Counted from the stretch's first letter, positions 5,368 to 35,738 are shown. The stretch is DNA of 64,000 nt from an uncultured Actinomycetes bacterium (GCA_964508345.1 CAZDTK010000001.1:236012-300011); one strand, 5' to 3'. Made by a program: numbers and translations. The notes: generated by a model not told the origin, from the sequence alone.

Positions 5368-5397
5368 AGGCGTCGTCCGATGTGGCCGGTGCGAACG

Positions 5398-14786: not shown

Positions 14787-14991
14787 CTGGAGGTCCTCCT
14801 GCTCAGAGCCCGGTCGAATGCCCGCGCGCGGGCCAGCCCCTCCCCTCTCATGATGACCGAGGTGGGGGGTGCCTCGCCGGGACCCACGCGCTCCCACCGC
14901 ACCGCCGGAGACCGCGCCCGAACCCTCTCGGGACTCTCTGGGAGAATGGGCCGCACCGACGACCGATCACCCCACGGACGGAGGGCCGGCC

Positions 14992-16683: not shown

Positions 16684-16746
16684 CCTCCGGCGACCGAGGC
16701 CCGGGGAGCTCGTCGCGTCCCGGTTGTGATTCCGCGTTCCTGCCGC

Positions 16747-19500: not shown

Positions 19501-19598
19501 AACCCCCGACCCCTGTGGCCTCGCGCTCCTCCAGGACGGCCAAAGTCTACAGGTATCCCTAATTGTGCTCGCGGGTGGCCGCCCCTACCGTCGTGAGC

Positions 19599-19934
19599 AT
19601 GCCCGAGTTCATGGTCGAGGTGTACGTCTCGCGGGCGGATGCGCTAACGGCGGCATCACCCACGCGGGACGTCTCCAGGGTTGCGGCCCAGATCACCCGT
19701 GAGGGGAGGCCGGTTCGCCTGGTCCGCTCCATCCTTGTTCCCGAGGACGAGACATGCCTCTACCTCTTCCGGGCGCACACCGGTGATGCCGTTCGCGAGA
19801 CCGCGACACGGGCGGGATTGCGATTCGAGCACGTGGCCGAGGTGACGGCCGACGGCCGGCGTCGCCCTCCGCCCCGGGGAGACGTCCCCCTCCGTCGACG
19901 GGCTCACCTCGAGCAGCGGGAGGCACCGGCGTGA
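19599..19934 (+). CDS. DUF4242-like small protein
   Basis: MPEFMVEVYVSR...RSILVPEDETCLYLFRA resembles DUF4242; start inferred at an internal ATG; divergent from the LAL regulator. Confidence 0.4.
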   Translation: MPEFMVEVYVSRADALTAASPTRDVSRVAAQITREGRPVRLVRSILVPEDETCLYLFRAHTGDAVRETATRAGLRFEHVAEVTADGRRRPPPRGDVPLRRRAHLEQREAPA

Positions 19935-19987
19935 CCTCCCGTGATTCCCAAACCTCATTTCGAAAGACCATCTCAAGGAGAACAGTC

Positions 19988-20473
19988 ATGACACGCAGAA
20001 AGCTCATCTTTTCCGGAGCAGCGGCGGCCGCCGCGGTGCTTGCCGGCGGCGCGATCGCCTTCGCAGCGTGGTCCGCCTCAGGGTCCGGGAGCGGCTCGGC
20101 CATCGCCGACACGGAGCAGACCGTGACGGTCAACGCGGTGGCGCTCACCTCGTCGTCGGCGTCGCTCTACCCGGGCGGCCCCGCGGGCAACGTCTACTTC
20201 ACGGTCACCAACCCCAACCCGTACGCGATCAAGGGCACCAACATCGCCTGGGGGACGCCCGTCTCGGGGAACCCCAGCGCCTGCCCGAGCTCGGTGATCA
20301 GCATCGACGCGAGCGCTCCGACGAGCGGCCTCTCGTTGACGATACCGGCCAGTGGGACCTCCGGGCTGCTCGAGGTCAGCGGCGTCCTCGACCTGTCCTC
20401 GTCGGCGACCGACGCATGCCAGGGCAACTCGTTCACCGTGCCGATCACCATCAGCGGTCAGCAGCTCCCCTGA
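19988..20473 (+). CDS. secreted protein, paralog 1 of a local triad
   Basis: ATG 19988 with RBS aaggagaacag; signal peptide MTRRKLIFSGAAAAAAVLAGGAIAFA; Ser/Thr-rich; shares the LYPG...TVTNP...ACP pattern with the next gene. Confidence 0.55.
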   Translation: MTRRKLIFSGAAAAAAVLAGGAIAFAAWSASGSGSGSAIADTEQTVTVNAVALTSSSASLYPGGPAGNVYFTVTNPNPYAIKGTNIAWGTPVSGNPSACPSSVISIDASAPTSGLSLTIPASGTSGLLEVSGVLDLSSSATDACQGNSFTVPITISGQQLP

Positions 20474-20496
20474 GCCTGCTGGCGCGGAGCGACCTC

Positions 20497-21024
20497 ATGT
20501 TCGCGACACGTGGCGCGCGGGGCTCCTGGCGAGGGGCCCTGCGCGCCGGCCGGATGGGTCCGGCGGCTCTTCTCGGTGTGGTGATGATCGGGCTCTGCGG
20601 GTGCTCAGCCGATCTCCACACTGACCGGCTGGTGTTCCTGGGCTCCGGGAGCTCGGGCCCCGTGTCGATCGCCGGCGGCTCGAGCTTCGCGCCCGCCCCG
20701 CCGGCCGGCGGCGAGGGATCGTTTCGCATCGCCGGTGACAGGAGCGGCCTGTACCCCGGGCTCTCCACCACCCTGGTGCTGACGGTGACCAACCCGCAGG
20801 CGTTCGCGATCGTCGTGAGCTCGGTGACGACGACGGTGCACGCTGCCAGCGGCAGCTGCCCGGCATCCGACCTCTCGGTGGGCTCGTTCGAGGGGCAGCT
20901 CTTGGTTCCGGCCCGCGGCTCCGCCACGACATCGGTCCCCGTGAGGTTGGTGGCGGACGCCCCCAACGCCTGCATCGGGGCCACCTTCCCGCTCGTCTAC
21001 AGCGGCGTCGGATGGAGACCGTGA
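20497..21024 (+). CDS. lipoprotein, paralog 2 of the secreted triad
   Basis: ATG 20497, 23 nt after the previous stop; signal with LCGCS lipobox; LYPGLSTTLVLTVTNPQAF / SCPASD motifs parallel to the upstream gene. Confidence 0.5.
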   Translation: MFATRGARGSWRGALRAGRMGPAALLGVVMIGLCGCSADLHTDRLVFLGSGSSGPVSIAGGSSFAPAPPAGGEGSFRIAGDRSGLYPGLSTTLVLTVTNPQAFAIVVSSVTTTVHAASGSCPASDLSVGSFEGQLLVPARGSATTSVPVRLVADAPNACIGATFPLVYSGVGWRP

Positions 21025-21025
21025 G

Positions 21026-21457
21026 ATGAGACGGATCTCCCTTCTTCAGGGCATGTTGGCGTCGCTCTGCCTCACGCTGCTGCTCGGCGTCGTCCTGGCG
21101 CCGCTGACTGAGGCGGCGTGGAGCGCCACCGGGGCGGGGACCGCGAGCGCCCTCGCTGACACGATGCCCTCGGGCAGCCAGCCGAGCGCGAGCCCAACCG
21201 GCACCAGCGTGTCGCTCAGGTGGACGGCCGCACTCCTCCCCGGCAACGAGGGCGTCGCCGGTTACGTCATCCACCGGTTCGCAGCGACGGGCGGCGCCGA
21301 GGCGACGGTGGGCCCCGGCTGCAGTGGTGTGGTGACGACGACGATCTGCACGGAGGCCAACGTCCCCGCGGGCACCTGGGTCTACACCGACACGCCGGTC
21401 CAGGACAGCTGGTCGGGCGGGCAGAGCGCCGCGAGTGCCCCGGTCACGGTTCCGTAG
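21026..21457 (+). CDS. secreted protein with fibronectin-III-like segment
   Basis: Starts 2 nt after the previous stop; signal peptide MRRISLLQGMLASLCLTLLLGVVLAPLTEAAWS; SVSLRWTAA...GYVIHR pattern. Confidence 0.5.
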   Translation: MRRISLLQGMLASLCLTLLLGVVLAPLTEAAWSATGAGTASALADTMPSGSQPSASPTGTSVSLRWTAALLPGNEGVAGYVIHRFAATGGAEATVGPGCSGVVTTTICTEANVPAGTWVYTDTPVQDSWSGGQSAASAPVTVP

Positions 21458-22072
21458 CGGCCAGGGCGCGCCGGCTCTCTCCGGCTCTCAGGGCCAAGGC
21501 ACCGCTCGGGGTGGGGGAGGGCGGTTCGCGGCCCCGGCATCCGGCGGAGCGGGCCCGCAGACCACCGTGGACAAGTCTCCGCTCCCCTGGATCTCGCCGT
21601 AACGGCGAGAGGAGGCTCGAGGCGCCCCGGTTCGGCCCCGGAATCGCGGCCGGCTCAGCAGGGTGCCGCCACGATCATCGGACTGGCTCCTCCCACCCCA
21701 CTCGCAGCTCGCGGCCGCGGTCGTCGTGAGGCGGACCGGCCGCATAGTCACTTCATCTGGGTTGCCATGCCTCCCGGGCGTGAAGGGGCAGATGGCTCGA
21801 TGGGAGACCCCCGGCTCGGGATCGACGTTGTCACAGCAGCGCACAGCCCGTGCCCCGCGGGTCCGCCTGCCTTGGATGTGGTGGTCCGAACTGGGCGCCG
21901 GTCACGAGTGCCACGACTGGGAGGGGGCCCACCGGCCTGTGGAACCGATCGGCGTCGGCTCCCGGCCCGAGCGAGGCTATGCCTAAGCAGCTCTCGGTCG
22001 GCGGGGCCGGGGAGCCTCCCCCGGGAGGTTCCGCGAGTTGGGGGACGGCCCGGCTGCTACCATCAAGGGTCC

Positions 22073-22150
22073 GCGCCCATAGCTCAGTCCGGATAGAGCG
22101 TCTGACTACGGATCAGAAGGCCAGGGGTTCAAATCCTCTTGGGCGCGCCA
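22073..22150 (+). tRNA. tRNA-Arg (anticodon ACG)
   Basis: Cloverleaf folded by hand: acceptor GCGCCCA/TGGGCGC, D-arm GCTC-AGTCCGGATA-GAGC, anticodon arm TCTGA-CTACGGA-TCAGA (anticodon ACG), T-arm AGGGG-TTCAAAT-CCTCT, encoded CCA. Confidence 0.9.
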
Positions 22151-22866
22151 ATCGCTGGCCTTCGTCCGGTTGGTGGACGCGGGCCGTCAGGGCGGCTGGT
22201 GTGTCGTTCCACTGCGCCATAAGGCTGGGTGTGCCCGACGGCGCGCTTGCTTTGGTAGGAGGAGATCTCAGGTCGAGTTTGAGAGCGCCTCGACAAGACG
22301 TCTGATTCTGAGTTCAGACGCCACGTCTGCCTGATATCGGGGCCGCTCAAGCAGACGCTCCGACCTTCGTACCCCTGAACTATGAGCAGACGCTCCATGA
22401 GCGCGCTCGTTCGGAGCATCTAGGCGTCCAAGGTAAGCGGTCTGACCGTGGTGCCGGAGCCGTCCCCCCTCGAGCCCGGATCATCGTCTTGTTTGACGAC
22501 AAACGGGCGGGCGGTGCCTCTCGCAAGACCAGTGACGTGGCCGGGACCGTGGCACAGCAGCCTAGCCGTGATCGACCAGGTCCTAGCCTCACCTCACCCC
22601 CACCGGCGCCCGCGACGCGCGGCGCGCTCATGCGTTCGCTGCTGGCTGAGGGGCCGTGGTGATATCGAGCGCCTGGCGACCTCCTTGCCGTCGCTCAGCC
22701 CGCTGGTGGGAGTCGGCCGCCGATTTCCGGTAGCCCTCCCCCAATGCCTCGAGTGCGGAGTACCCTCAGTAACCACGTCAAAAGGCTCGCCCGGGGCTCC
22801 ATGGTCGGGGTTGAGGCGACCTTGCGAGTGCCTCCGATCAACCTCCACGCGCAGGTAGGTAGCCAC

Positions 22867-23496
22867 ATGTTACGCAGACGTGGCGCATGGCCAACACCCT
22901 CCTTCGAGCAGATCCGCAAACGGGCACGGATCCTCGTTATCGACGATCAGGCCTTTCCATACGAGGCGCTCTTCGCACGTGATGGCTATAGCCTAACGAA
23001 GGAGGACGACGTATCTAGCCTGTCCGATCTCGAGGACGGAGACTACGACCTAATTCTTCTGGATCTTCAAGGTGTCGGCTCGAAGGAGTCATCTGATGAA
23101 GGACTCGGAGTTCTCAGGCACCTGCGAGAAGTTCGTCCAGCGCAGATGGTCATTGCTTACTCTGAGGCAACATTCGGTTTGAAAGCGCAGCCCTTCTTCC
23201 GCCTCGCCGACGGAGTCCTTCAGAAGAGTGCTGACTACATTGCGTTCAAGGAGAAGGTTGATGAGCTGCTTCAATCACGATTCTCTGTCGGGTTTTACGT
23301 TGGGCGAATCGCCGTGGAGGCCGGCCTGGCCGGCAGAGAGAATGCTCGTTTGGCCGACCTGGCTCAGCGTGCAATCATCTCCGGCAGACCAGCGAAGCTC
23401 AGGGCCTTTCTCAAAGACAAGATCGACGACAAGACCATCCGTCGCATCCTGATTATCATTGAGGCCGCGCGCTTCGCGGCATCTGTGTGGAAGTAG
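22867..23496 (+). CDS. response-regulator receiver (REC) protein with a C-terminal ~95-aa domain of unknown function
   Basis: ATG 22867; RILVIDDQ ... DLILLDLQ (phospho-acceptor Asp context) ... conserved K in the REC fold; C-terminal helical region without a recognisable DNA-binding motif. Confidence 0.7.
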   Translation: MLRRRGAWPTPSFEQIRKRARILVIDDQAFPYEALFARDGYSLTKEDDVSSLSDLEDGDYDLILLDLQGVGSKESSDEGLGVLRHLREVRPAQMVIAYSEATFGLKAQPFFRLADGVLQKSADYIAFKEKVDELLQSRFSVGFYVGRIAVEAGLAGRENARLADLAQRAIISGRPAKLRAFLKDKIDDKTIRRILIIIEAARFAASVWK

Positions 23497-24680
23497 GGAT
23501 TCCCTTCTTTCCCCTCCCTCACGTCTATCAAGGGCGGAGGGGCGATGGACTTGACGCACCATGGCCACGGAAGTGCCTTGAATGTCGGGATCGAGAGTGC
23601 GAGCGCGGGGCAGTTGGTGCGCTCAGCACATGCAGGTTCGGCGTCAACTACATTAGGTTGTCTTCCGACCTCCTTGCCTTAGGCTTCGTGGTTACGGACC
23701 TCTCAGAGGCTAGCGTTTCTGACGCTCGCAGAAGAATGCTACGGGCTCCGGGCGTCAAACACTTGCGCCGGGTTCATGTGTTGTCAATCATTGAGCACTG
23801 GCCAGCGGTCGATGTGCAAGTGAAGCACGACGCATCTGCGCGGCTAATGGAGGAGCTCGAAGCCCTCCGTGGTTCGCGGGGATACGTCGAGTTGCTGTGT
23901 GGGCACCTCAAGAGCGAGATACAAACTGCCCTGGGCCAAGTTCACGACTACCGTCAGCTCGTCACACAGATCATCCAGAACATGAACGTCATCGCTGAAC
24001 GAGCGCATCCTAGTATGCCAGTGGACGAGTCGCTGCCGCTAATCGGCCATGAGGAGATGGCGATCTACCAGGCGGCGCGCCTCATGGAGCAGAAGCTTCA
24101 AGCAGCGCTGTTCTTCGTGCACCCGGAGAAGATCAATGACCCTGCCGATAGCGAGAATATCCGGATTCACGGACTAGTCATCAAGTACCGGAAGATCTAC
24201 TCTCATGCCTTCGATGCTAAGGGACTCCGGATAATCGAGACCGGTGAGAGCCTCGGAGGGATGTGGGGAAATGGGGACGCCCTTGGTGTAATTCCGCAGA
24301 CGTTCATTGATAACGCCTATAAGTACTCGCCGAGGGGAGAGCGCGTTGAGCTTAGTTTCCACGAGGACGAGCACTGGATCGAGTTCGTGGTCAGCTCGTT
24401 CGGACCGCGGATTGACGATGACGAGCGCCAGCGCATCTTCGAGCCGTTCTATCGAGGAAGAAACGCTACCGTTGGTACCGGCGAAGGCACGGGCTTTGGA
24501 CTAGCCCTCTCGCAGCTTGTGGCCGACCGATGTGGGGTGGAGATTACCTTCACTCAGAACCCACAGCGAGCAAGTGGCACTCTACTATGGACTTCGTTCA
24601 AGGCAAGATTCCCGCGATCTAGGCGGCCTCCCAGCCCGCCGATCCGGCCGCGAGATGGACGAATTCGCCGCAGCGCTTAG
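23487..24680 (+). CDS. cytoplasmic histidine-kinase-like protein: N-terminal Cys4 zinc-ribbon-like motif, degenerate H-box, HATPase_c domain
   Basis: GTG 23487 overlaps the REC stop by 10 nt (the first in-frame ATG is ~80 codons downstream). CLECRDRECERGAVGALSTC gives a C-x2-C-x4-C-x10-C spacing. N-box IDNAYKYSP, G1-like DDDERQRIFEPFYRG, G2 GTGEGTGFGLALS. A candidate H-box IGHEEMAIY sits ~90 aa before the N-box. No TM segments. Confidence 0.7.
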   Translation: MEVGIPFFPLPHVYQGRRGDGLDAPWPRKCLECRDRECERGAVGALSTCRFGVNYIRLSSDLLALGFVVTDLSEASVSDARRRMLRAPGVKHLRRVHVLSIIEHWPAVDVQVKHDASARLMEELEALRGSRGYVELLCGHLKSEIQTALGQVHDYRQLVTQIIQNMNVIAERAHPSMPVDESLPLIGHEEMAIYQAARLMEQKLQAALFFVHPEKINDPADSENIRIHGLVIKYRKIYSHAFDAKGLRIIETGESLGGMWGNGDALGVIPQTFIDNAYKYSPRGERVELSFHEDEHWIEFVVSSFGPRIDDDERQRIFEPFYRGRNATVGTGEGTGFGLALSQLVADRCGVEITFTQNPQRASGTLLWTSFKARFPRSRRPPSPPIRPRDGRIRRSA

Positions 24681-24775
24681 TCGCATACCCCGCGGAAGGG
24701 TACCTGAGCGAGGCGGTTACGGCTACCCCGCAGCGCACCGACCGGGCGCATACGTGCCAGATCGGGAACTTGGAC

Positions 24776-25348
24776 TCAAGTTCTCCGGGACTGACCCACA
24801 GCGTCGCGAACGCGCAATGCAGCCGACTCGGTGTCCTCGTGTTCCCAGACGCGCAGTGAGAGCCATCCACGCTGCGCCAGTAGGTCGTCAAGCTCCTTGT
24901 CTCTTCTTCGGTTGTACTCGATCTTGGCAAGCCAGTATTCGCGGTTAGTTCTTGGTGGCACGAAATGTCGGGGACACCCGTGAAAGAAGCAACCGTCAAG
25001 GAACACTGCGATGCGCAATCTAGGAAATACAATGTCGGCGGTGCGTCTGAGTTCGGGCAAGGGGCGCGCGTTCACCCGATACCGCAAGCCAAGTCGATGG
25101 AGCTCCGACCGCAGAGCTCTCTCGGGCGCCGTCCCGGAAGACACACAGGCGCGCATCGACCGCCGGGTTGACTCGGACTTTGCCCACGACCTACCACGGG
25201 TTACGAACGCGGGGAGGCGCGGGCTCCGCGGAACCGCGCCTCGCGGAGCGGCAAGACTGTTGGGGTCATCGTCGTCGTTCACGGGGCTGGCCGCGCGTTC
25301 AGGACCCGCTGCGGTCGTGAACGGTCGAAGGTGTGGGCCGTGAACCAT
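24776..25348 (-). CDS. vsr: very-short-patch repair endonuclease
   Basis: Vsr motifs: SESTRRSMRA..., DIVFPRLRIAVFLDGCFFHGC, EYWLAKIEYNRRRD; the N-terminal 45 aa of the ORF may be non-coding (true start possibly internal). Confidence 0.85.
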   Translation of the reverse strand: MVHGPHLRPFTTAAGPERAASPVNDDDDPNSLAAPRGAVPRSPRLPAFVTRGRSWAKSESTRRSMRACVSSGTAPERALRSELHRLGLRYRVNARPLPELRRTADIVFPRLRIAVFLDGCFFHGCPRHFVPPRTNREYWLAKIEYNRRRDKELDDLLAQRGWLSLRVWEHEDTESAALRVRDAVGQSRRT

Positions 25349-25708
25349 TCGGGGTCATCGCCACCCAGTTTGCGGCCGGCGGCGTGCCGATGACAATCAC
25401 TCGTCGCGCGGCTTCGGGGCCATCTGAACCGGCCTCTCCCCCTGCCGCCACGGGACGCTCTGTATTTCGTCGAGGTCGATCGGGTCCCGCCCATTTCGGT
25501 CAACTGCGGGGCGGCGCCACCGACCCAAGGCCCTCACACTTGGCTGACTTAGCACGTTTGCAGCGCTCCGTGGTGCGGTCTATGCGGTCTGACGGCGCTT
25601 GACCAATCATGTATTTCTCACGCTGCTTACTCCACATCCCAAGCCACTCGAGCCGACGCCCTCCCGTGGGGTCGCACATCCGTTCAGGCGCTGATAAGAT
25701 GGTGGCCG

Positions 25709-27055
25709 ATGCTCAGGCAGGCCTGCACCCAACGCCCAGCTCCGCTGCGACGACCTTCCGTGGTGTCACTGTTCACCGGCGCTGGCGGGCTTGACATCGG
25801 TTTGGAGCAGGCCGGGTTCCGCATTGTCGCAGCGACAGACTGTGATCGCGACTGCATCCACACACTTCGCCACAACCAGCTCTCCTCCATTTCGATTCCT
25901 GGACAACGAGGGCGCAAGTACCTACACGGCACAAAGATCATCGAGGCGGACATCCGCACTGTGCATCCGTCCGAGCTACTCGCGAACGACGCCGATCTGT
26001 TCTGGGCTCCTGATCTCTTGTGTGGCGGCCCACCCTGTCAGCCTTTCAGTTCAGCTGGAAACATGAAAGCACTGAGTGATCCTCGAGGCCGACTCTTCGA
26101 GCACTTCGTTCGCATCGCGGACGCCTTGCGACCACGGTATATTCTCTTCGAGAATGTCCGCGGGCTGGTCACAGCGATAGGTCCGAAAGGTATCCCCGGA
26201 GAGGCGATCGCTCTTGTCCGTGAGGCATTCGAAGACATTGGCTACGCCACGACTTTCGCTCTGCTAAACGCAGCCGATTACGGCGTCCCGCAGCGACGCG
26301 TCCGCTGTTTCATGCTCGGGACGAGAGCCGGACATCTACCCGACTTCCCACGGCCGACGCATACGGCTGCGCCTCTCCGAGCCGATCGAGCAGGCCTCAA
26401 GCCACACGTCACTCTCCACAAGTTTCTCGCTCGCTTTCCTGTGGTCGAGGACTCTGAGATAGCTCGGCCGTCGCCTAGCCTAGCTGAGCAGCTCGCGTCG
26501 CTTCCCCCTGGTTCGGGGATCAAGAGCGCCGGAGCTCGGGAGGCAACTCGTCCGGGTGGCCACTGGGGCTACAAGCAGGGTACGTTCGTTGCGGACCCCC
26601 AACTGCCCGCCAGAACGGTCACAGCCGCAACCAGCCAGGACTGGATCCGCATGCCAGATAGCTCGCTGAGGAGGCTTTCGCTTCGAGAGGTGGCCGGCCT
26701 TCAAGGCTTTCCCAGTCAGTGGGAGTTTGTTGGAGGCAGCGCGAGCCGATTCCGGCAGGTGGGAAACGCTGTGCCGGTGGCTTTTGGTCGTGTCTTGGGC
26801 GAGGCGATTTTGAGCACGCTGAATCGCCCCCAGCCGGTTGAGGCCCCCGTGTCAAGGCCGTTTCCGGCCGCGTTCACGGAGTCCATCAACTACACAATTC
26901 GCGAGCACCGGGCCAACAAGGCGAGTCGGGACCGCGTCAGAGAGTTGACGCGTGTTGGCCACGCCGTGACGGACATCAAGGGACTTGGCGCGCAGGACGG
27001 CCACCGTCACCGCGAAGCCTCGGTTACCCTCCCCTTGTGGTCGTCGGAGATGTGA
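25709..27055 (+). CDS. dcm: DNA (cytosine-5)-methyltransferase with an ~80-aa C-terminal extension
   Basis: Motif I FTGAGGLDIG, motif IV GGPPCQPFS, ENV, QRRVR, motif X GNAVP; divergent from vsr across a 360-bp gap. Confidence 0.9.
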   Translation: MLRQACTQRPAPLRRPSVVSLFTGAGGLDIGLEQAGFRIVAATDCDRDCIHTLRHNQLSSISIPGQRGRKYLHGTKIIEADIRTVHPSELLANDADLFWAPDLLCGGPPCQPFSSAGNMKALSDPRGRLFEHFVRIADALRPRYILFENVRGLVTAIGPKGIPGEAIALVREAFEDIGYATTFALLNAADYGVPQRRVRCFMLGTRAGHLPDFPRPTHTAAPLRADRAGLKPHVTLHKFLARFPVVEDSEIARPSPSLAEQLASLPPGSGIKSAGAREATRPGGHWGYKQGTFVADPQLPARTVTAATSQDWIRMPDSSLRRLSLREVAGLQGFPSQWEFVGGSASRFRQVGNAVPVAFGRVLGEAILSTLNRPQPVEAPVSRPFPAAFTESINYTIREHRANKASRDRVRELTRVGHAVTDIKGLGAQDGHRHREASVTLPLWSSEM

Positions 27056-27133
27056 GTTTCGGATCCCAAGCGCTGACAGTGTTGTCGTCAAGGAAGAGGC
27101 GATCACCCTCGGGAACGGTGATGACCTCGAGGC

Positions 27134-28315
27134 ATGATGGTTGACGAATTAGATTCCGAGGAACCAGAAGAGGGCGCGGGCGAGGGGGCGTTCCTTGAAG
27201 CTACGGCAACCGACTCAGCTACGGACCCCAAGAACTGGGGCGCTCTTGCTGAAGCTCTTAAGGGGACCGCGAAAGACTTCACGGCTAGGATGAAGCGAGA
27301 GTCCAAAGCCCTAGAGACGCTCCGCGCGTGCGAAGGCCTCGATCGAGGAGAAAGCAAGCGACTCCGGCGTCTCCAGGACTTAGCGCAACAGGGCCTTGAC
27401 TCCATGTTGTACTCGGACGGTTCGCGCCGGCGCCGGCGGTTTAACCTCCCTGCCCTAGCCGACTACAAACTCGTTATCGCATTCGTTCGGTATGGGGCAA
27501 GGGCCGCGCTGAAGGTGGCCTCACCGAGAGCGGGTGACTTCCTGAACAACCAGCTGAGGGGTCAGTGGGCTGAGCGTGTGGTTCTGTCGCTGACGCGGCG
27601 GCTCGATGACATCGTCTTCGTTCCGTTCGGCCCTTCGAGCGCGGCGATGCCAGGCGATGACCGATACCGCGAATTAACGGCCGCTTATCGAGAGATCGTG
27701 CTGGTGGAGGGGAAGCGACCCGACCTTCTGGCCTTCGATGGGGCTGTGTGGAGCGGCCTCGCCCCGGGCGACATCCGGCGAACGGAGAGTTGGCCGGAAC
27801 GGCTTCTTGTTGAAGAGGACATGGCGATAGTGAGACGGGGGATGTGTGGGGCTGAGGTTAAGTGCAGCACATGGCATTACGCAAAGAGACGAGAAGCGGG
27901 AGGATCGCCACTTGCGGTCACTGCTAAAGAGGAGGAACTTGCAGACTTCGAGCACTGGGAGAGAGAGACTGGCTTGCCAGTGGTATTCTTCCAGGTGCTC
28001 TTTGACGAGATCTACTGCATGAGCTTCGCGCGCATGCTTGCGGCAATTGACCGCGGGTTTCTTTACACGAGTGGGGATTACGTGCTGGATCGACAAACGG
28101 GAGGGGGGGGAAAGGTATTCCACCGGTTCAAGTTAGTAGATTTCAAGCATCTTTTCGGATCGGTGGTTTTTCCGAACGACTCACGCGGGGTAATTCGCGT
28201 GCTGCAGGATGGGAGCGTGGTACCGTTCTTGGAGTACCTGCCTGCAGAGGCGGAGGTGTTGAGTGAGTCAATCTTCCGAGAGGAGGTTGGATTCCGTCAC
28301 GCGACCTCGCCGTGA
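27134..28315 (+). CDS. hypothetical protein, candidate PD-(D/E)xK restriction endonuclease partner of Dcm
   Basis: 393 aa immediately downstream of dcm on the same strand; acidic N-terminus; candidate nuclease motif RPD ... AEVKC; no confident family assignment. Confidence 0.45.
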   Translation: MMVDELDSEEPEEGAGEGAFLEATATDSATDPKNWGALAEALKGTAKDFTARMKRESKALETLRACEGLDRGESKRLRRLQDLAQQGLDSMLYSDGSRRRRRFNLPALADYKLVIAFVRYGARAALKVASPRAGDFLNNQLRGQWAERVVLSLTRRLDDIVFVPFGPSSAAMPGDDRYRELTAAYREIVLVEGKRPDLLAFDGAVWSGLAPGDIRRTESWPERLLVEEDMAIVRRGMCGAEVKCSTWHYAKRREAGGSPLAVTAKEEELADFEHWERETGLPVVFFQVLFDEIYCMSFARMLAAIDRGFLYTSGDYVLDRQTGGGGKVFHRFKLVDFKHLFGSVVFPNDSRGVIRVLQDGSVVPFLEYLPAEAEVLSESIFREEVGFRHATSP

Positions 28316-28806
28316 CTTGCCTTCCTGCAGATCTGGAGCTCTCCAGAAACCCCGGGGAGGTGGACCAGATTGCGAATCTCTGGATTCTGGCGCGAGGGAC
28401 GAACTGCAACATGAGCGCGAAGGATCCGAACAAGTTCTTCCGGGATGTCGAGGACAATACTCTTAGACATGCCGCGATTGAACGCTCACCTCTGACCTAT
28501 CACGGGTTTGAGTCGTTCGTTGACGTGTGGCAAGAGGCGCTCAAGGAACGGCTAAGCGAGCGCTTGGGCTTGTCGGCGGAGGATCTCCGTACCCTCTCCA
28601 GTCCGATAACTCGAGCGATGCCATGGGGAGCGTGCTCGGGATCCGCGCGTAGGTTAGAGGCCGTGACTCGCAAGCAAGCTGGTCTGATCGCGTCGCTCAC
28701 GTATTGCAAGAGTAGGCGGTGCGAGGCAGGACGAGAGGAGCTCCGCGATTATGATCAGGATTCAGCCACGGGGGAGTTGGGTAACAGGTTCCTCTACTGC
28801 TGTTAG
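28312..28806 (+). CDS. hypothetical Cys-rich protein translationally coupled to the upstream ORF
   Basis: GTG 28312 overlaps the upstream TGA (GTGA); 164 aa; C-terminal Cys cluster (YCKSRRCE...LYCC); no homology recognised. Confidence 0.45.
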   Translation: MTCLPADLELSRNPGEVDQIANLWILARGTNCNMSAKDPNKFFRDVEDNTLRHAAIERSPLTYHGFESFVDVWQEALKERLSERLGLSAEDLRTLSSPITRAMPWGACSGSARRLEAVTRKQAGLIASLTYCKSRRCEAGREELRDYDQDSATGELGNRFLYCC

Positions 28807-29558
28807 TGGCCGGACCGCCTGTCTTGCATTGCGTGGATTAGGATGCCCGCGATAAGGGTAATGACGGTGAGAGAGACAGTCCAAGAAATGAGGACCGGGC
28901 GAGAGAAACCGCGTGTGGCAGCCAGGTAGACCCACCATCCCTTGGCGAAGAGAAGCGCAGCCACGGCGCCGAACACTATCAAGATCCAGTGGCCTGCGGC
29001 TGCGAGTTGGACAGTTGAGGGCGCAGCATGTGGACGGGTTGTCGTTCTCCGGCGGGTGTGGATTCCTCGTTGCCAGGCCATCGGCGCGCCGTCCGAATCG
29101 GCGAGCACCGAGGCGTACTGGAGGACGGCCACGGAGAGGGCCAGAGAGACCGCCACCGCGATCACCGGTTGTTGACTAGCAGTCATCGCTGCACCGACCT
29201 CCACTGCGACGATTAGTAGGGGCGCCAGCACTTCAAGGAGCCCTCTGAGCGCTTGCTCGTAGTATTCGACCATCAGGAGCAGCGCCCCGAGGAAGCCGGC
29301 TCCGACGCTGGCGATCTGCCAACTGGTCCCCCACGTCGGTGGGGTCCCAAGGCCTAGCACACGGCGTGGCACTGGGAGGACGTAACTCTCCACGGCGATG
29401 GTGATCGAGAGCATGGCGAGCAGCACCATAAACTCGCGGAGCCGCCGTCGGCGTCTGGCCGCGATCTCTGTCTGCTCCAGCCGTTCCAGGGAAGTCCCGA
29501 GCCGGACTCGGAGCACGACGGGATTGGTTCGGCGGCTCTTGTCGGGCTCCTGGCTCAT
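28803..29558 (-). CDS. multi-pass membrane protein, unknown function
   Basis: 251 aa with 5-6 hydrophobic helices; tail-to-tail overlap with the preceding ORF; lies at the distal edge of the island. Confidence 0.5.
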   Translation of the reverse strand: MSQEPDKSRRTNPVVLRVRLGTSLERLEQTEIAARRRRRLREFMVLLAMLSITIAVESYVLPVPRRVLGLGTPPTWGTSWQIASVGAGFLGALLLMVEYYEQALRGLLEVLAPLLIVAVEVGAAMTASQQPVIAVAVSLALSVAVLQYASVLADSDGAPMAWQRGIHTRRRTTTRPHAAPSTVQLAAAGHWILIVFGAVAALLFAKGWWVYLAATRGFSRPVLISWTVSLTVITLIAGILIHAMQDRRSGH

Positions 29559-29913
29559 GTCACCACAGGAGCAGAAATCGGGCTGCCTCGGCAGCGGCTC
29601 GGCCGGTCTGGCTGCTTAGGCGCGCTTCCGTGCCATGTGTAGTTGGAAGGCGAGAATCCCATCGTCACGACCAGTACGTTAGGCCTTCCGCACCGGTGCT
29701 TCGACCCCGCTACACAGTCGTAACGCACGCCAGTCCGACCGGGACAAGCCAGAGTGAGGCAGCGACCGCGTCCACCTCGCGGACTGGCGGCTGATTAGCG
29801 GCAGCGCGAGACAGTCCCGCTGCGCGCCCACTACTGCCGGATTCCGCCAGCCGGCGGCGTCGGGCGCCGCTGCCGACGGAGGTGCCCGCAGCCGACGAAG
29901 CGGCGATGCGCTT

Positions 29914-30606
29914 CTACCCGCCGCGCACTCCAACGAACCCGAGCATTCCCTCATCCAGGTCCGTCAGCGACCCCAGCACCACGTCCGCCTCCGCATACCG
30001 TGGGTCCCCCGCCACCAGCGGGTCGGGCACCGCGATGCAGCGCATCCCCGCCGCCTTGGCCGAGGCCACCCCGCTCGGCGAGTCCTCGATCGCCAGGCAG
30101 CGCTCGGGCGGCACCCCCAGGCGCCGGGCGGCGGTGAGGTAGACGTCCGGGGCGGGCTTGCTCCGCACCTCCTCCATCGCCGAGCAGCGCACCTCGATCG
30201 ACTCCAGGCCGAGACGCTCGCAGACCACCTCGATCATCCGCGGCGGTGACCCGGAGGCGATGGCGACGGGCAGCCCCAGCCGCCGGAACAGCGCGAGCGC
30301 CTCGGCCACCCCGGGCATGGCCACCCCGGTGGCCCGCACCTCGGCCGCCACCAGGTCGATGATCCGCTCCGCGACCTCTGCGTCGCTCGGCCGGCGCACC
30401 CCGTCGGGCGTGGCCGGCTCGCGCTGCCGCCACACCGGGATCACGGAATCGATGGTCTGCCCTATCGAGCCGAGGCACTCCTCCTCGGTCAGCTCGACCC
30501 CCAGCTCGCGGAAGACCCGCTCCTCCGCCACCCGCCACACCGGCTCGGTGTCGATGAGCAGGCCGTCCATGTCGAGGATGACCGCCTCGATCGGGGGCCG
30601 ACTCAA
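29914..30606 (-). CDS. HAD-superfamily hydrolase (beta-phosphoglucomutase/sugar-phosphatase-like)
   Basis: Motif I ILDMDGLLIDTE; motif III/IV KPAPDVYL ... AIEDSPSGVASAKAAGM. Confidence 0.75.
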   Translation of the reverse strand: MSRPPIEAVILDMDGLLIDTEPVWRVAEERVFRELGVELTEEECLGSIGQTIDSVIPVWRQREPATPDGVRRPSDAEVAERIIDLVAAEVRATGVAMPGVAEALALFRRLGLPVAIASGSPPRMIEVVCERLGLESIEVRCSAMEEVRSKPAPDVYLTAARRLGVPPERCLAIEDSPSGVASAKAAGMRCIAVPDPLVAGDPRYAEADVVLGSLTDLDEGMLGFVGVRGG

Positions 30607-31412
30607 AGGGCGCGGATCTTGTGCGCCTTCTCCACCAGCTTCTCGGCCCGGGCCGGGTCCACCGGGTTCCAGGTGATCCCGTCCACCTTGAGGCTGGTGC
30701 CCACGATCACCCCGTCGGCGATCGAGAGGATCTCGGTGAGCCGGTCGGCCTGGACCCCGGTGTTGGCGAAGACGGGCGTCTGCGGGACCGCCTCCTTGGC
30801 CTGGCGCAGGTCGCTCATGGCGAAGGGGACCCCCGCCTCCGGGCCGCTGATGAGGATGGCGTCGACGCCCAGGAAGGCGGCGCTCTTGGCCCTCTCGGCG
30901 ACGGTGCGGGTGCCGATCGTGCTGCTGAACTCCGGGGTGATGTTGTCGAAGAGGGCGACGTCCCCCGCGCCGATGTTCTCCCGGTAGGCGGCGAGGTCGC
31001 CCAGCGCCGGGGCGAAGAGGCCCATGTCGCTCTCGTATACGCCGGTGAAGACCTCGCGGACAAAGGTCGCCCCCGTCGCCCGGGCCAGGGCCAGGCTCGC
31101 CCGCGCGTCCCAGAGGATGTTGACCCCGAAGGGGACCCGGATCGAGGAGCGCAGCTCGCCGATCACGGCCGCCATCGCCGCCGGGATCTCCGGACCGACC
31201 GCGAGCTGGTAGGGGATGTCGGCCTCGTTGCAGAAGAGCACCGCGTCGACGCCCGCCTCCTGGAGCACCAGGAGGTCCTTGCCGACCACGTCGACGAGGT
31301 GCTGGCGCCCCGCCTCTCGATCATGCCGCGGCCGGCCCGGCAGTCCGGGGAAGTGCAGCATCGCGATCACCGGCTTGGAGACACCGAACCTCTGCTCGAG
31401 CGACATGGTCAT
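30603..31412 (-). CDS. BtpA/SgcQ-family TIM-barrel protein (paralog A)
   Basis: 269 aa; VIAMLHFPGLPG ... LFCNEADIPYQ ... ISGPEAG pattern of the BtpA (PF03437) family; 4-nt overlap with the HAD gene. Confidence 0.8.
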   Translation of the reverse strand: MTMSLEQRFGVSKPVIAMLHFPGLPGRPRHDREAGRQHLVDVVGKDLLVLQEAGVDAVLFCNEADIPYQLAVGPEIPAAMAAVIGELRSSIRVPFGVNILWDARASLALARATGATFVREVFTGVYESDMGLFAPALGDLAAYRENIGAGDVALFDNITPEFSSTIGTRTVAERAKSAAFLGVDAILISGPEAGVPFAMSDLRQAKEAVPQTPVFANTGVQADRLTEILSIADGVIVGTSLKVDGITWNPVDPARAEKLVEKAHKIRAL

Positions 31413-31430
31413 GACGGACTCCTTCCTGAA

Positions 31431-32240
31431 TCAGAGTGCGCTGTGCGCTCTCACGAACTCGATGACCGCCCGGTTCCACGGCCCGGGATCCTCCCAGAAG
31501 GCGGCGTGCCCTCCCGGCACGCTGCTCCAGGTGGCGTGGGGCAACGCCTCGCAGAGGCGGCGGGAGAGCTCCTCCCGGATGATGATGTCGTCGCTCGCGG
31601 CCATCACCAACGCCGGCACGGTGATCGCCGCCACCCGGCCGATGGCGTCGTGGTCGACGAGCGCGGCCGTCTGGGCGGCGAAGGTGGCGGCGGGCTGGGT
31701 GCTCTTCTGCGCCTCGGCGATCAGCTCCTCGACCCGCTGCGGATGGGCGGCGTAGAAGGCGGGGCTGTAGATCCAGGGCGCCTGCAGCCGCACCATCATC
31801 GCCATCCCCGCCGCCTCCGCGACCTCCGCCCAGCCGAGGAACGCGGCGCGGGTGAAGGGATCCGGTGTCGCGTAGGTGTTGGCGAGCACCAGGGAGCGCA
31901 GGTCGCCGGGGTGGGCGATCGCGTACTCCTGGGCGATCACGCCGCCCATGGAGACGCCGGCGAGGTGGAACGGCGCCAGCCCCAGCTCACGGGCGATGGC
32001 GTGCAGGTCCTCCGCCATCTCGGCGCTGGTGTACGGACCGGGGGGCTGGCTGGAGAGCCCCACCCCGCGGTTGTCGAAGCTCACCACGCGCAGGCCACTG
32101 GAGACGAAGGCATCGACCTGGTTGGCCCATGCCTCCAGGTCGTCGCCCACCCCGTTGACCAGGACCAGCGTCTCGGTGCCGTCGCCATGGATCCGGTAGT
32201 GGAGGTGCAGCGCGCCGGTGTGGATGGAGCCCTCGATCAT
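31431..32240 (-). CDS. alpha/beta-fold hydrolase
   Basis: ATG at complement 32238-32240; nucleophile elbow GVSMGG, HGDG...LVLVNG; ATGA overlap with the upstream gene. Confidence 0.75.
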   Translation of the reverse strand: MIEGSIHTGALHLHYRIHGDGTETLVLVNGVGDDLEAWANQVDAFVSSGLRVVSFDNRGVGLSSQPPGPYTSAEMAEDLHAIARELGLAPFHLAGVSMGGVIAQEYAIAHPGDLRSLVLANTYATPDPFTRAAFLGWAEVAEAAGMAMMVRLQAPWIYSPAFYAAHPQRVEELIAEAQKSTQPAATFAAQTAALVDHDAIGRVAAITVPALVMAASDDIIIREELSRRLCEALPHATWSSVPGGHAAFWEDPGPWNRAVIEFVRAHSAL

Positions 32241-33151
32241 CCGAGACCTCGCTCCTGCATCGCATCCTTCCACAGCTCGACGGACTCCAGCAGCCCGTCG
32301 AGCACCGCCCCGTCGTCGTCCTCCCAGCCGGGGATGATCTCGAGGATGAGCAGCAGGTCGCCGGCGCCCGCCTCCGCCAGGGTGTCGAGCACCCGCCCGG
32401 GGTCGATGCGCCCCTGGGCGTTGCGCTCGGGGGTGAAGGGCCAGTGGTGGTCCCCCAGCGCGTCGGACTGCTGGAGCTGGACCTCGACGAGCCCGCGGCC
32501 GAAGTGGCGCAGCCACGCGTACGGGTCGCGCTCGTCGCCGCTCGTCCCCGGCACGCACTGGTGGCCGACGTCGAGGCAGAGCCGGACCGGCACGTGGGCC
32601 AGGTCCCCCTCGCTGAGCAGCCCCTCGACCACGTCCATCGTGGACGGCTCCCGCACCGCCACCAGGTTCTCGATGAGCAGGTGGTCGAGGCCCGCGTCGC
32701 GGGCGTGGCCGGCCAGCTCGATGAGGTCCCTTCTCAGGTCGGACCAGCGCTCCAAGCGGAGGGTCGGGTCCGACCAGTCGGGGACGCTCATGGTGCCGAC
32801 GTGCCCGCCGGTGGCGGTGGCCCCCAGCTCCGCGGTCACGTCCACCACGCTCCGGAACCAGCGCAGCGCGGCCCGGCGCCGCTCGGGGTCGGGGTGCATG
32901 AGCAGGTTGGTGCCGTACGCGGCCAGCCCGGTGAAGGTCGTCTCGGCGCGCAGGCCGTGATGGCTGAGGGCCGCCCGGGTCAGCTCCACCGAGCGATGGC
33001 GCTCCACCGGGTCGTCGAATCCCTCGACGAGGTCCAGGGACAATTCGACGAGCAGCAGCCCGAGATCGTCCCTCACCACCCGCGCCCAGTCCTCGGGCCG
33101 GGGCCAGCGCTTGAGGGCAAAGCAGTTGTTGATGCCGAGCCGCGCACGCAT
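32237..33151 (-). CDS. sugar-phosphate isomerase/epimerase (xylose-isomerase-like TIM barrel)
   Basis: ATG at complement 33149-33151 with a GGAGAGG RBS; MRARLGINNCFALKRW..., metal-binding pattern typical of AP-endonuclease-2/xylose-isomerase-like TIM barrels. Confidence 0.75.
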   Translation of the reverse strand: MRARLGINNCFALKRWPRPEDWARVVRDDLGLLLVELSLDLVEGFDDPVERHRSVELTRAALSHHGLRAETTFTGLAAYGTNLLMHPDPERRRAALRWFRSVVDVTAELGATATGGHVGTMSVPDWSDPTLRLERWSDLRRDLIELAGHARDAGLDHLLIENLVAVREPSTMDVVEGLLSEGDLAHVPVRLCLDVGHQCVPGTSGDERDPYAWLRHFGRGLVEVQLQQSDALGDHHWPFTPERNAQGRIDPGRVLDTLAEAGAGDLLLILEIIPGWEDDDGAVLDGLLESVELWKDAMQERGLG

Positions 33152-33152
33152 C

Positions 33153-34697: not shown

Positions 34698-34711
34698 GGC
34701 GCGCGGCTCGC

Positions 34712-35668: not shown

Positions 35669-35738
35669 CAGCGCGCTCCGTGGACGAGCTTGCTGTCCGT
35701 CGGCGGCGCGGTCCGGGTCGGACCCGTCGCGATGCCCA

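What the first reader, a model, noticed from the sequence alone, without database searches (positions are those of the whole stretch)
22073..29700. Low-GC island next to tRNA-Arg(ACG) carrying an R-M module plus an atypical two-component pair
Directly 3' of a tRNA-Arg gene, GC falls sharply. Hand counts on 60-nt lines give about 58% at 22.86 kb and about 47% at 23.04 kb, against about 70% in the flanks. GC recovers near 29.7 kb, where the host-like HAD/BtpA sugar cluster begins. Every gene in between is either defence-related (vsr, dcm, a candidate REase), signalling-related (REC plus zinc-ribbon HK) or unknown. This is the classic signature of a tRNA-targeted, horizontally acquired defence island. 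No integrase, excisionase or transposase is visible, and about 700 bp between the tRNA and the first gene is non-coding, so the island may be old or degraded. It is the best candidate locus for an undescribed system in the window.
Basis: partly seen in the sequence, partly recalled or inferred. Interest (0 to 1): 0.75.

Follow-up and report, generated by a model that had tools for sequence, protein, structure and literature searches.

The report
Foreign defence islet beside tRNA-Arg
A 7.8-kb stretch of foreign DNA next to a tRNA gene carries an ordinary restriction-modification system, the stump of a second restriction gene, and a rare two-gene kinase/receiver cassette that appears alone at unrelated sites in many other bacteria and whose function is unknown.

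Summary
Window 22151-29913 is the strongest compositional outlier in the 64 kb: GC 55-65% against 72%, and third-position GC 0.65-0.73 against 0.94-0.97. Two related Dormibacterota genomes lack it and have only about 60 bp between tRNA-Arg(ACG) and the HAD gene.

It is a mosaic of separate modules:
- an intact Type II R-M: Vsr, a C5 methyltransferase and an AccI-family PD-ExK endonuclease;
- a C-terminal stump of a GmrSD/BrxU-type restriction gene;
- a membrane protein with about six transmembrane helices;
- a receiver + soluble histidine-kinase pair.

There is no integrase and no repeat of the tRNA end, so tRNA targeting is not shown.

The kinase/receiver pair is the interesting part. It is a self-contained cassette of about 1.85 kb. 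The receiver gene lies directly upstream of the kinase gene in 55 of 55 testable metagenomic loci. The flanks are unrelated between loci, and the cassette averages 10 GC points below its flanks. All phosphorelay residues and four N-terminal cysteines are invariant, and no known output domain is present. It resembles the untested PADLOC candidate PDC-M43, but its architecture differs. A defence role is plausible but unproven.

The parts
22073..22150 (+). tRNA-Arg(ACG). It is intact and forms the left landmark of the insertion.
   Evidence: ARAGORN and Rfam RF00005 at 66 bits. It is 88% identical to the tRNA that lies about 60 bp from the HAD gene in L009 and L011.
22151..22866 (.). 716-bp spacer with no recognisable gene, at about 65% GC. 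The left breakpoint of the insertion lies near its start and cannot be placed more precisely than 22151 to about 22200.
   Evidence: No Pfam hit at E<=1 for its four ORFs. No blastn or tblastx similarity to any fetched locus. No Rfam family. Weak residual similarity to the L009/L011 spacer just after the tRNA.
22867..23496 (+). Receiver (REC) protein of 209 aa: a canonical receiver fold followed by a C-terminal four-helix bundle of about 70 aa with no known output domain.
23487..24680 (+). Soluble histidine kinase of 397 aa: an N-terminal Cys4 (CxxC-x4-C-x10-C) domain, a long helix, a DHp domain with H153, and a CA domain. It overlaps the REC gene by 10 nt.
   Evidence: HATPase_c at 1.9e-16. 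Homologues cover 94-98% of the 397-aa form. C30, C33, C38, C49, H153-D-Y, N276 and the G2 box are invariant in 65 of 65 sequences. H153 aligns with the H-box histidine of CusS. AlphaFold2 pLDDT is 86, and Foldseek matches CpxA and HK853 at 1e-13. PDC-M43B at 1.3e-8.
24776..25348 (-). Vsr very-short-patch-repair endonuclease. The true start is probably downstream of the first ATG.
   Evidence: TIGR00632 at 118 bits, above the 97.85 cut-off. PF03852 at 2e-14. PADLOC Vsr at 5e-14. The FLDGCFFHGC motif is readable in the translation.
25709..27055 (+). C5 cytosine DNA methyltransferase, the M subunit of a Type II R-M system.
   Evidence: PF00145 at 9.6e-58 across the full profile. TIGR00675 at 175 bits, above the 100.65 cut-off. 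PADLOC MTase_II at 1.7e-78. M.HaeIII at 1.7e-34. The FxGxG, PCQ, ENV, QxRxR and GNAVP motifs are visible in the translation.
27134..28315 (+). AccI-family (PF09545) PD-ExK restriction endonuclease, the R subunit.
   Evidence: PF09545 at 46.6 bits, above the 22 cut-off. All 57 homologues below the self-match (P0184) carry PF09545. The protein is full length against 13 homologues and keeps every invariant residue, including D197, E241 and K243. Homologues sit next to a C5 methyltransferase in both loci checked.
28312..28806 (+). Stump of a GmrSD/BrxU-type (DUF262-DUF1524) Type IV restriction gene. Only the last ~80 residues' worth of homology remains, roughly nt 28354-28581.
   Evidence: PADLOC HEC-05 (= BrxU), profile positions 514-595 of 600, at 4.4e-6. 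tblastn aligns aa 15-90 with about the last 90 residues of a 566-aa 'DUF262 domain-containing protein' of Agrobacterium pAtCG920, 38% identity, 4e-8. An in-frame stop lies about 20 codons upstream.
28803..29558 (-). Membrane protein of unknown function, 251 aa, about six hydrophobic helices.
   Evidence: No Pfam, NCBIfam or PADLOC hit. Hydropathy segments. Third-position GC is 0.73, which is island-like. The gene is absent from L009 and L011.
29559..29913 (.). Right junction. It is non-coding, GC rises towards host level, and the right breakpoint lies somewhere inside it.
   Evidence: Collinear homology with L009 and L011 resumes inside the HAD gene at about 29973. No ORF here has a Pfam hit.

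Best explanation
Window 22151-29913 is foreign DNA inserted into the roughly 60-bp gap that in related genomes separates tRNA-Arg(ACG) from the HAD phosphatase gene. It is a mosaic of at least three independent modules with no mobility gene of its own.

(1) A complete Type II R-M system. The C5 methyltransferase marks host DNA. The AccI-family PD-ExK endonuclease cuts unmarked incoming DNA. Vsr nicks the T:G mismatches left when 5-methylcytosine deaminates, which limits the mutational cost. These are inferences from family membership; the recognition site is unknown.

(2) The 3' stump of a GmrSD/BrxU-type modification-dependent restriction gene. It abuts the R-M module. Loss of the rest of the gene is shown. 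That the R-M displaced it is inference. That the cause was a conflict between a 5mC-dependent nuclease and the incoming methylase is speculation.

(3) A 1.85-kb two-gene cassette that is autonomous and horizontally mobile in its own right. A soluble kinase with an invariant Cys4 N-terminal domain (probably zinc-binding) senses something inside the cell, autophosphorylates on H153, and passes the phosphate to D66 of the receiver. The receiver's own small four-helix C-terminal bundle is the only possible output. Its behaviour across genomes points to a conflict module, either phage defence or addiction, rather than a housekeeping regulator: it is always paired, its neighbours are always different, it is always more AT-rich than its host, and it is sometimes found in integrative elements or beside TIR, Abi or toxin-antitoxin genes. 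Cassette structure and the catalytic residues are shown. The trigger, the output and the biological role are inferred.
For: Insertion:
- L009 and L011 have BtpA-HAD, about 60 bp, then tRNA-Arg(ACG). They are collinear with the window on both sides: 81.5-81.7% nt identity over 5.7 kb on the HAD side, and 77-84% aa identity on the transketolase side.
- The composition contrasts are extreme.
- The same junctions occur in contigs from four or more independent samples and three sources.

R-M:
- The curated cut-offs are passed.
- All conserved residues of the endonuclease are present.
- The endonuclease-methyltransferase pairing recurs elsewhere.

Stump.

Cassette:
- 55 of 55 testable loci have the REC gene directly upstream of the kinase gene.
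- Mean cassette GC is 0.461 against 0.562 in the flanks. It is lower by at least 0.03 in 35 of 42 loci and higher in 2.
- None of the 64 loci shares the window's R-M genes.
- Only 8-9 of 946 locus pairs share any flank similarity, and most of the strong ones are re-samplings of the same contig or closely related contigs. There is therefore no conserved third gene.
- In annotated genomes the GC dip is confined to about 2 kb.
- Contexts: five solo among housekeeping genes, and others next to TIR plus integrase, HicAB/AbiTii/reverse transcriptase, or ParB/SSB/integrases/RHS.
- The phosphorelay residues and four cysteines are invariant.
- The folds are confirmed.
- The family is rare: 218 clusters at E<=1e-30 among 1.84 billion representatives.
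Against: - No experiment exists. PDC-M43, the nearest named entity, is itself untested.
- Half of the annotated cassette contexts are plain housekeeping neighbourhoods with no defence gene nearby. Defence-island enrichment is therefore not demonstrated.
- No toxic or nuclease effector domain is recognisable.
- How the DNA got in is unknown. There is no integrase, no att site, no terminal repeats on the island and none around solo cassettes.
- Only two empty-site genomes were found, and they are about 18% diverged at the DNA level.
- The closest relatives by BtpA identity (L007, L008) have the sugar cluster at a different, tRNA-less site.
Confidence: 0.72

Rival explanations
1. A classic integrase-mediated, tRNA-targeted genomic island that entered as one unit at the 3' end of tRNA-Arg and has since lost its integrase and attR.
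For: The island starts within about 50 nt of the tRNA 3' end and is absent from related genomes. A relative of the cassette does sit in an element with two tyrosine integrases, and another sits next to an integrase.
Against: There is no integrase or remnant in any ORF. There is no copy of the tRNA 3' end anywhere in the island. The tRNA differs from its orthologue at scattered positions, not only at its 3' end. The modules occur separately elsewhere and never together. No other cassette examined is near a tRNA. The 5' side of the same tRNA is also variable.
Confidence: 0.2
2. The kinase/receiver pair is an ordinary regulatory two-component system, for example one that controls expression of the adjacent R-M or another host function, and has no role in conflict.
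For: All catalytic residues of a normal phosphorelay are present. Five of ten annotated contexts are housekeeping neighbourhoods. Single-domain and small-output response regulators that act through protein-protein contacts are common (established knowledge).
Confidence: 0.2
3. The region is ancestral and was deleted in the compared relatives, or it is a metagenome assembly chimera.
For: Only two empty-site genomes were found, and both are about 18% diverged. The source is a metagenome.
Against: Third-position GC of 0.65-0.73 against 0.94-0.97, and A/T-ending codons 6-8 times more frequent than in host genes, are incompatible with long residence. The same junctions were recovered in contigs from JGI, ENA and Logan assemblies of different samples.
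Confidence: 0.04

Closest known systems
Type II restriction-modification systems with a C5 methyltransferase and an associated Vsr (for example EcoRII/Dcm/Vsr or HpaII with V.HpaII; recalled from general knowledge)
   Same: The three components are the same, and each passes its family's curated threshold. The endonuclease sits beside the methyltransferase, as its homologues do elsewhere.
   Different: The endonuclease belongs to the AccI family (PF09545). The recognition sequence is unknown. No controller (C) protein was found. The vsr gene is divergently oriented, with a 360-bp gap.
PADLOC candidate PDC-M43: a two-gene, untested 'phage defence candidate' found by guilt-by-embedding (Payne et al., bioRxiv 10.1101/2024.01.29.577857)
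   Same: Both proteins, and all ten family members tested, hit the PDC-M43A and PDC-M43B HMMs and no other PADLOC model. The gene order is the same: receiver, then kinase. The protein sizes are similar.
   Different: The receiver domain lies at the C-terminal end of the PDC-M43A profile (positions 71-198 of 203) but at the N-terminus here, where a helical bundle follows it. Only the late DHp and CA part of PDC-M43B aligns: 22% of the profile for the window protein, and E-values of only 1e-8 to 1e-16 across the family. The Cys4 N-terminal domain is not covered. Here the pair lies beside a Type II R-M, not embedded in BREX, DISARM or Type I R-M.
Detocs (DtcA/DtcB/DtcC), the validated defensive two-component system. 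It is described in PMC11728103 as a kinase, a phosphate 'buffer' and a response regulator. The PNP effector and TPR sensor are recalled from my own knowledge of Rousset et al. 2023.
   Same: The logic is the same: a cytoplasmic sensor kinase with a receiver-containing partner, carried on mobile DNA.
   Different: This cassette has two genes, not three, and no buffer receiver. It has no TPR sensor and no PNP or other recognisable effector domain. No hit to anything but PDC-M43 was found in PADLOC.
GmrSD/BrxU (HEC-05) Type IV modification-dependent restriction enzymes
   Same: Residues 11-90 of the 164-aa ORF are homologous to the extreme C-terminus of these roughly 570-600-aa proteins.
   Different: The DUF262 domain and the catalytic part of DUF1524 are missing, so this is a gene remnant and not a working enzyme.
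tRNA-linked genomic islands
   Same: It is next to the 3' end of a tRNA, is compositionally foreign, is absent from relatives, and carries defence cargo.
   Different: There is no integrase, no direct repeat of the tRNA end, and no evidence that it moved as a unit.

Membership tests
Type II R-M with Vsr | C5 DNA methyltransferase with the conserved motifs | tested here: met
   PF00145 at 196.6 bits, matched across the whole profile. TIGR00675 at 175 bits, above the 100.65 cut-off. The motifs are readable in the translation.
Type II R-M with Vsr | Adjacent restriction endonuclease with an intact catalytic core | tested here: met
   PF09545 at 46.6 bits, above the 22 cut-off. D197, E241 and K243 and all other invariant residues are kept against 13 homologues. 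Homologues lie next to C5 methyltransferases.
Type II R-M with Vsr | Vsr mismatch endonuclease | tested here: met
   TIGR00632 at 118.2 bits, above the 97.85 cut-off.
Type II R-M with Vsr | Matching sequence specificity of the methyltransferase and the endonuclease, and enzymatic activity | not testable with these tools
   This needs REBASE comparison, methylome data or enzymology.
PDC-M43 (PADLOC candidate) | Both proteins match the A and B HMMs, in the order A then B | tested here: met
   A at 2.1e-18, B at 1.3e-8. The REC gene lies upstream of the kinase gene.
PDC-M43 (PADLOC candidate) | Same domain architecture, with full-length profile coverage | tested here: not met
   REC maps to profile positions 71-198 of 203 but to protein residues 52-176 of the 250-aa ORF (about 11-135 of the 209-aa protein), and a C-terminal bundle follows it. 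The kinase covers only profile positions 235-309 of 347. The same pattern holds for ten family members.
PDC-M43 (PADLOC candidate) | Embedded in BREX, DISARM or Type I R-M (the basis on which it was discovered) | tested here: not met
   In the window the pair is adjacent to a Type II R-M. In the ten annotated contexts it is never inside such a system.
Canonical two-component phosphorelay | Kinase with a phospho-accepting His in a DHp helix, plus the N and G boxes of the CA domain | tested here: met
   H153 aligns with the H-box His of CusS. H153, N276 and the G2 box are invariant in 65 of 65 sequences. Foldseek matches CpxA and HK853 at 1e-13. The G1 box reads SxGP rather than DxGxG.
Canonical two-component phosphorelay | Receiver with the DD / D / S-T / K quintet | tested here: met
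Canonical two-component phosphorelay | Recognisable output domain (DNA-binding or enzymatic) on the response regulator | tested here: not met
Detocs | Three genes: a kinase, a buffer receiver, and a receiver fused to an effector | tested here: not met
   Only two genes are conserved, and there is no conserved third gene among 44 loci. No effector domain is detected.
Integrase-mediated tRNA-targeted island | Tyrosine or serine integrase at one end | tested here: not met
   No such domain occurs in any ORF of 22151-29913.
Integrase-mediated tRNA-targeted island | Direct repeat of the tRNA 3' end at the far boundary | tested here: not met
   nothing above shuffled-sequence scores.
Integrase-mediated tRNA-targeted island | Adjacent to a tRNA 3' end, absent from related genomes, foreign composition | tested here: met
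GmrSD/BrxU Type IV restriction enzyme (for ORF 28312-28806) | DUF262 N-terminal domain plus the DUF1524 His-Me nuclease motif | tested here: not met
   Only the last ~80 residues are homologous, and there is an in-frame stop upstream. No Pfam hit.

The most novel reading that the evidence does not exclude
The receiver/kinase cassette is a complete, minimal two-gene immune or addiction system. An invariant Cys4 (zinc) domain on a soluble kinase detects an intracellular sign of infection or of plasmid loss. Phosphotransfer from H153 to D66 then switches the receiver's own four-helix C-terminal bundle, which ends in a hydrophobic helix, into the effector, for example by oligomerising or inserting into the membrane. 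If so, it would be a defensive two-component system with no separate effector enzyme, and distinct from Detocs.
Probability: 0.25. Interest if true: 0.7.

Novelty: new variant of a known kind. Interest (0 to 1): 0.42.

Why it matters
The island itself is routine: a small horizontally acquired defence islet with a standard R-M system. Two points add value.

First, the kinase/receiver pair belongs to a rare family, 218 clusters among 1.84 billion representatives. This family behaves like a selfish or defensive gene cassette across hosts whose flanking GC ranges from about 35% to 75%. It has invariant phosphorelay residues and an invariant Cys4 sensor domain, but no recognisable output. If it is a defence system, it would show that a bare phosphorelay can act as an immune module, and it would give a compact 1.85-kb construct that is easy to test. 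It would also refine an untested PADLOC candidate class.

Second, an m5C R-M system abuts the stump of a modification-dependent GmrSD-type nuclease. This is a small natural example that may record a conflict between defence systems.

Tried and rejected
- attR: searched for a copy of the tRNA 3' end (window version and L009 version) by pattern with up to 3 mismatches, by the repeat finder and by Smith-Waterman. Nothing scored above shuffles.
- Mobility-gene remnants: Pfam at E<=1 on every ORF of the three non-coding stretches found none. blastn and tblastx of those stretches against all fetched loci gave noise only.
- RNA families: Rfam at E<=0.1 over 20-32 kb returned only the tRNA and, at E 0.029 (27.7 bits against a gathering score of 65.7), an antisense Plastid-ycf2 match over the same bases.
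- Promoter and terminator scans: no more hits than in shuffled sequence.
- Closest relatives by BtpA identity (L007, L008): the sugar cluster lies at a different, tRNA-less site, so they say nothing about the junction.
- Carrier of the cassette: there are no relatives of the receiver in 50,697 phage records or 72,556 plasmids. The kinase gives only generic kinase hits in plasmids. None was found in IMG/VR.
- Terminal repeats around four solo cassettes: none is consistent.
- A conserved third gene: none.
- Solved-structure relatives of the endonuclease and of the 164-aa ORF: none by sequence.
- PDC-M43 details in the paper's supplements: only the cassette line (72 instances, two families) survived truncation of the stored files.
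- The G1-box Ser for Asp first looked significant. CusS also lacks the Asp at that position, so I do not press it.

Full report

Yes. ARAGORN and Rfam place tRNA-Arg(ACG) at 22073-22150 on the + strand.

- GC in 500-nt windows drops from 0.69-0.74 to 0.55-0.67 between about 22.0 and 29.75 kb, and returns to 0.73 by 29.75-30.25 kb.
- Against all other 2-kb windows of the 64 kb, the island scores z = -3.5 to -5.7 for GC and z = +4.0 to +7.8 for tetranucleotide distance. This is the largest anomaly in the window.
- The signal is strongest at codon level. Third-position GC is 0.65-0.73 in the island genes, against 0.94-0.97 in the HAD, BtpA and transketolase genes that flank it.
- A/T-ending codons make up 27-37% of island codons, against 4-5% in host genes.

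**2. Is it an insertion?**

The exact BtpA protein occurs on 17 contigs from JGI, ENA and Logan assemblies. Every contig long enough to show the site carries the same island. It is therefore not an assembly artefact, and it is fixed in that population.

A scan of 185,579 species genomes with BtpA returned 80 loci. Two of them keep the local synteny: the Candidatus Dormibacterota MAGs SPRUCE_256 (L009) and fen_878 (L011).

- Both have BtpA-HAD, about 60 bp, then tRNA-Arg(ACG) in the same relative orientation.
- DNA identity is 81.5-81.7% over 5.7 kb up to the HAD gene, and it resumes at the tRNA.
- Beyond the tRNA they continue directly into homologues of window 14789-7567, which include the transketolase-like gene.

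Everything between 22151 and 29913 is therefore extra in the window. None of the island proteins has a homologue in any of the 80 loci.

The breakpoints cannot be placed more precisely than 22151 to about 22200 on the left and 29559-29913 on the right.

The same comparison shows that window 14790-22050, on the 5' side of the tRNA, and window 240-7560 are also absent from L009 and L011. The tRNA lies in a generally plastic stretch of the genome.

**3. Was it tRNA-targeted?**

This is not shown.

- There is no second copy of the tRNA 3' end, in either the window version or the L009 version, by pattern search, by the repeat finder, or by local alignment above shuffled controls.
- No integrase, excisionase or transposase domain occurs in any ORF, including the ORFs of the three non-coding stretches at E<=1.
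- The 716-bp spacer after the tRNA has no homologue and no RNA family.
- The four differences between this tRNA and the L009 tRNA are scattered along the gene and are not confined to the 3' end.

**4. The R-M module**

- *Vsr (24776-25348, - strand)* passes the NCBIfam cut-off.
- *The methyltransferase (25709-27055)* matches PF00145 end to end and passes the TIGR00675 cut-off. Its nearest solved relative is M.HaeIII.
- *The endonuclease (27134-28315)* passes the PF09545 (AccI family) cut-off.
  - All 57 homologues below the self-match carry that domain.
  - It is full length against 13 homologues and keeps every invariant residue, including a PD...ExK triad at D197, E241 and K243.
  - In both homologue loci examined, the neighbouring gene is a C5 methyltransferase.

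I conclude that this is an ordinary and probably functional Type II R-M with Vsr. The recognition site could not be determined.

**5. The two 'unknown' genes**

- *ORF 28312-28806.* It matches only the last ~80 positions of the PADLOC HEC-05 model, which is BrxU, a GmrSD-like Type IV enzyme. By tblastn it also matches the last ~90 residues of a 566-aa DUF262 protein on an Agrobacterium plasmid. An in-frame stop lies 20 codons upstream. It is therefore a 3' stump of a modification-dependent restriction gene that abuts the end of the endonuclease gene.
  - Displacement of the rest of that gene by the R-M module is an inference.
  - The idea that a 5mC-dependent nuclease was incompatible with the incoming methylase is speculation.
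- *ORF 28803-29558.* It encodes a membrane protein with about six hydrophobic helices and no family match.

**6. The kinase/receiver pair**

*Gene models.* Homologues fix the receiver at 209 aa (start 22867) and the kinase at 397 aa. The 277-aa form called by a metagenome annotation pipeline is too short.

*Receiver.*
- Pfam does not recognise it.
- D26, D27, D66, S99 and K120 are conserved in 58-60 of 60 sequences.

*Kinase.*
- The model (pLDDT 86) shows a small N-terminal alpha/beta domain, a long helix, and then DHp and CA domains that match CpxA and HK853 at 1e-13.
- H153 aligns with the H-box histidine of CusS.
- C30, C33, C38, C49, H153-D-Y, N276 and the G2 box are invariant in 65 of 65 sequences that are only 26-55% identical to the window protein.
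- The model shows no membrane-spanning helices.

The pair is therefore a competent cytoplasmic phosphorelay with a probable zinc-binding sensor domain and no recognisable output.

**7. How the pair behaves in other genomes**

*Annotated contexts.* Ten contexts are available.
- In five, the two genes sit alone between unrelated housekeeping genes: Cellulomonas, Kibdelosporangium and three metagenomic contigs.
- In the other five they lie in mobile or defence-like surroundings:
  - this window;
  - a TIR protein plus an integrase;
  - HicAB, AbiTii and a reverse transcriptase;
  - a transposase and a HepT fragment;
  - an element with ParB, SSB, two integrases and an RHS toxin.

*GC dip.* In the annotated genomes the GC dip is confined to the ~2 kb of the pair, for example 0.77 to 0.54 and back to 0.78 in Cellulomonas.

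*Metagenome scan.* A scan gave 64 further full-length loci.
- A receiver homologue lies directly upstream of the kinase in 55 of the 55 loci with enough sequence to test.
- The pair averages 0.461 GC against 0.562 in its flanks. It is lower by at least 0.03 in 35 of 42 loci and higher in 2.
- No locus carries a homologue of the window's Vsr, methyltransferase, endonuclease or the two unknown genes.
- Only 8-9 of 946 locus pairs share any similarity in the 2 kb on either side, and most of the strong ones are re-samplings of the same contig or closely related contigs.

*Other tests.*
- No tRNA lies near the seven other annotated cassette loci scanned.
- No terminal repeats flank the solo cassettes.
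- No relatives were found in phage, plasmid or IMG/VR collections.
- The family comprises 218 clusters at E<=1e-30 among 1.84 billion representatives.

The pair is thus an autonomous, rare, horizontally mobile two-gene cassette. Its presence beside the R-M here is a coincidence of insertion site or of defence-islet accretion, not a functional linkage.

**8. Relation to known systems**

*PDC-M43.* In PADLOC the two proteins hit only PDC-M43A and PDC-M43B. PDC-M43 is one of 145 untested candidates that Payne et al. derived from genes embedded in BREX, DISARM or Type I R-M systems. It is a two-family cassette with 72 instances.

Ten members of the present family all give the same moderate matches:
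- The receiver aligns to the C-terminal two-thirds of the A profile, whereas here it is N-terminal and a bundle follows it.
- Only the late DHp and CA region of the B profile aligns.

I therefore regard this as a sister family with a different architecture, not a member of PDC-M43.

*Detocs.* The validated defensive two-component system Detocs has three genes and an enzymatic effector (PMC11728103; details recalled from my own knowledge). It shares only the general logic.

**9. Mechanism and confidence**

- *Shown:* foreign origin, the insertion relative to two relatives, the mosaic structure, intact R-M components, the truncated Type IV gene, cassette autonomy, and conservation of the catalytic residues.
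- *Inferred:* R-M activity, phosphotransfer from H153 to D66, zinc binding, and intracellular sensing.
- *Speculative:* that the cassette is an anti-phage or addiction module, and that the receiver's own C-terminal bundle is the effector.

A rival is that it is a plain regulator acting through protein contacts. The cassette's sporadic distribution, AT-rich composition and neighbour-independence argue against this, but no experiment excludes it.

**10. Verdict**

The R-M is ordinary. The kinase/receiver cassette is the one element worth an experiment. It is related to a published candidate but differs from it, so novelty is moderate.

Noticed in passing
window 14790-22050: About 7.3 kb on the 5' side of the same tRNA is also absent from L009 and L011, where the transketolase-like gene lies about 230 bp from the tRNA. 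It encodes a pro-kumamolisin/sedolisin-type protease (14869-16683), a 917-aa AAA_16-TPR-GerE (LuxR-family STAND) regulator (16747-19500), an SCO4226-like protein and two unknown ORFs. Third-position GC is 0.78-0.94, which is host-like to intermediate.
   Followed up: partly
window 240-7560: A second segment missing from L009 and L011, with moderately low GC (0.65-0.66, z about -2.4 to -2.9). It carries accessory genes (BNR-repeat protein, DUF4386, DUF1801, OmdA/YdeI, cupin). There are no defence or mobility domains.
   Followed up: partly
window 30603-36560 and loci L007-L086: The BtpA-containing sugar cluster has two BtpA paralogues (30603-31412 and 35739-36560). Its BtpA is 75-90% identical across MAGs labelled Dormibacterota, Chloroflexia, Streptosporangiaceae, Limnocylindrales and others. 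This suggests either transfer of the cluster between phyla or unreliable MAG taxonomy.
   Followed up: no
L088 8385-8920: The receiver gene upstream of the kinase appears frameshifted: two tblastn segments in different frames, and no gene called. This copy, next to a TIR protein and an integrase, may be decaying.
   Followed up: no
L087 8150-8246 (Cellulomonas sp. H30R-01): An exact 19-nt tandem duplication (GACGGCGAGCACGCCCGGC x2) spans the asd stop codon, followed by a 19-bp hairpin. Both lie immediately upstream of the solo cassette. This may be an insertion scar or just a terminator.
   Followed up: no
window 24396-24407 (kinase residues 304-307): The G1 box of the kinase reads S-x-G-P, with the Ser invariant in 65 of 65 sequences, instead of the usual D-x-G-x-G. 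CusS also lacks the Asp at this position, so the significance for nucleotide binding is unclear.
   Followed up: partly
window 37500-39500: A further GC dip (0.64-0.67) coincides with an amino-acid permease gene whose third-position GC is 0.95. This is a membrane-protein composition effect, not foreign DNA.
   Followed up: partly
L009 13687-13783 and L011 13680-13776: ARAGORN calls a 97-nt 'tRNA-Arg(CCT)' that overlaps the coding sequences homologous to window 13044-11758. This is probably a false positive.
   Followed up: no
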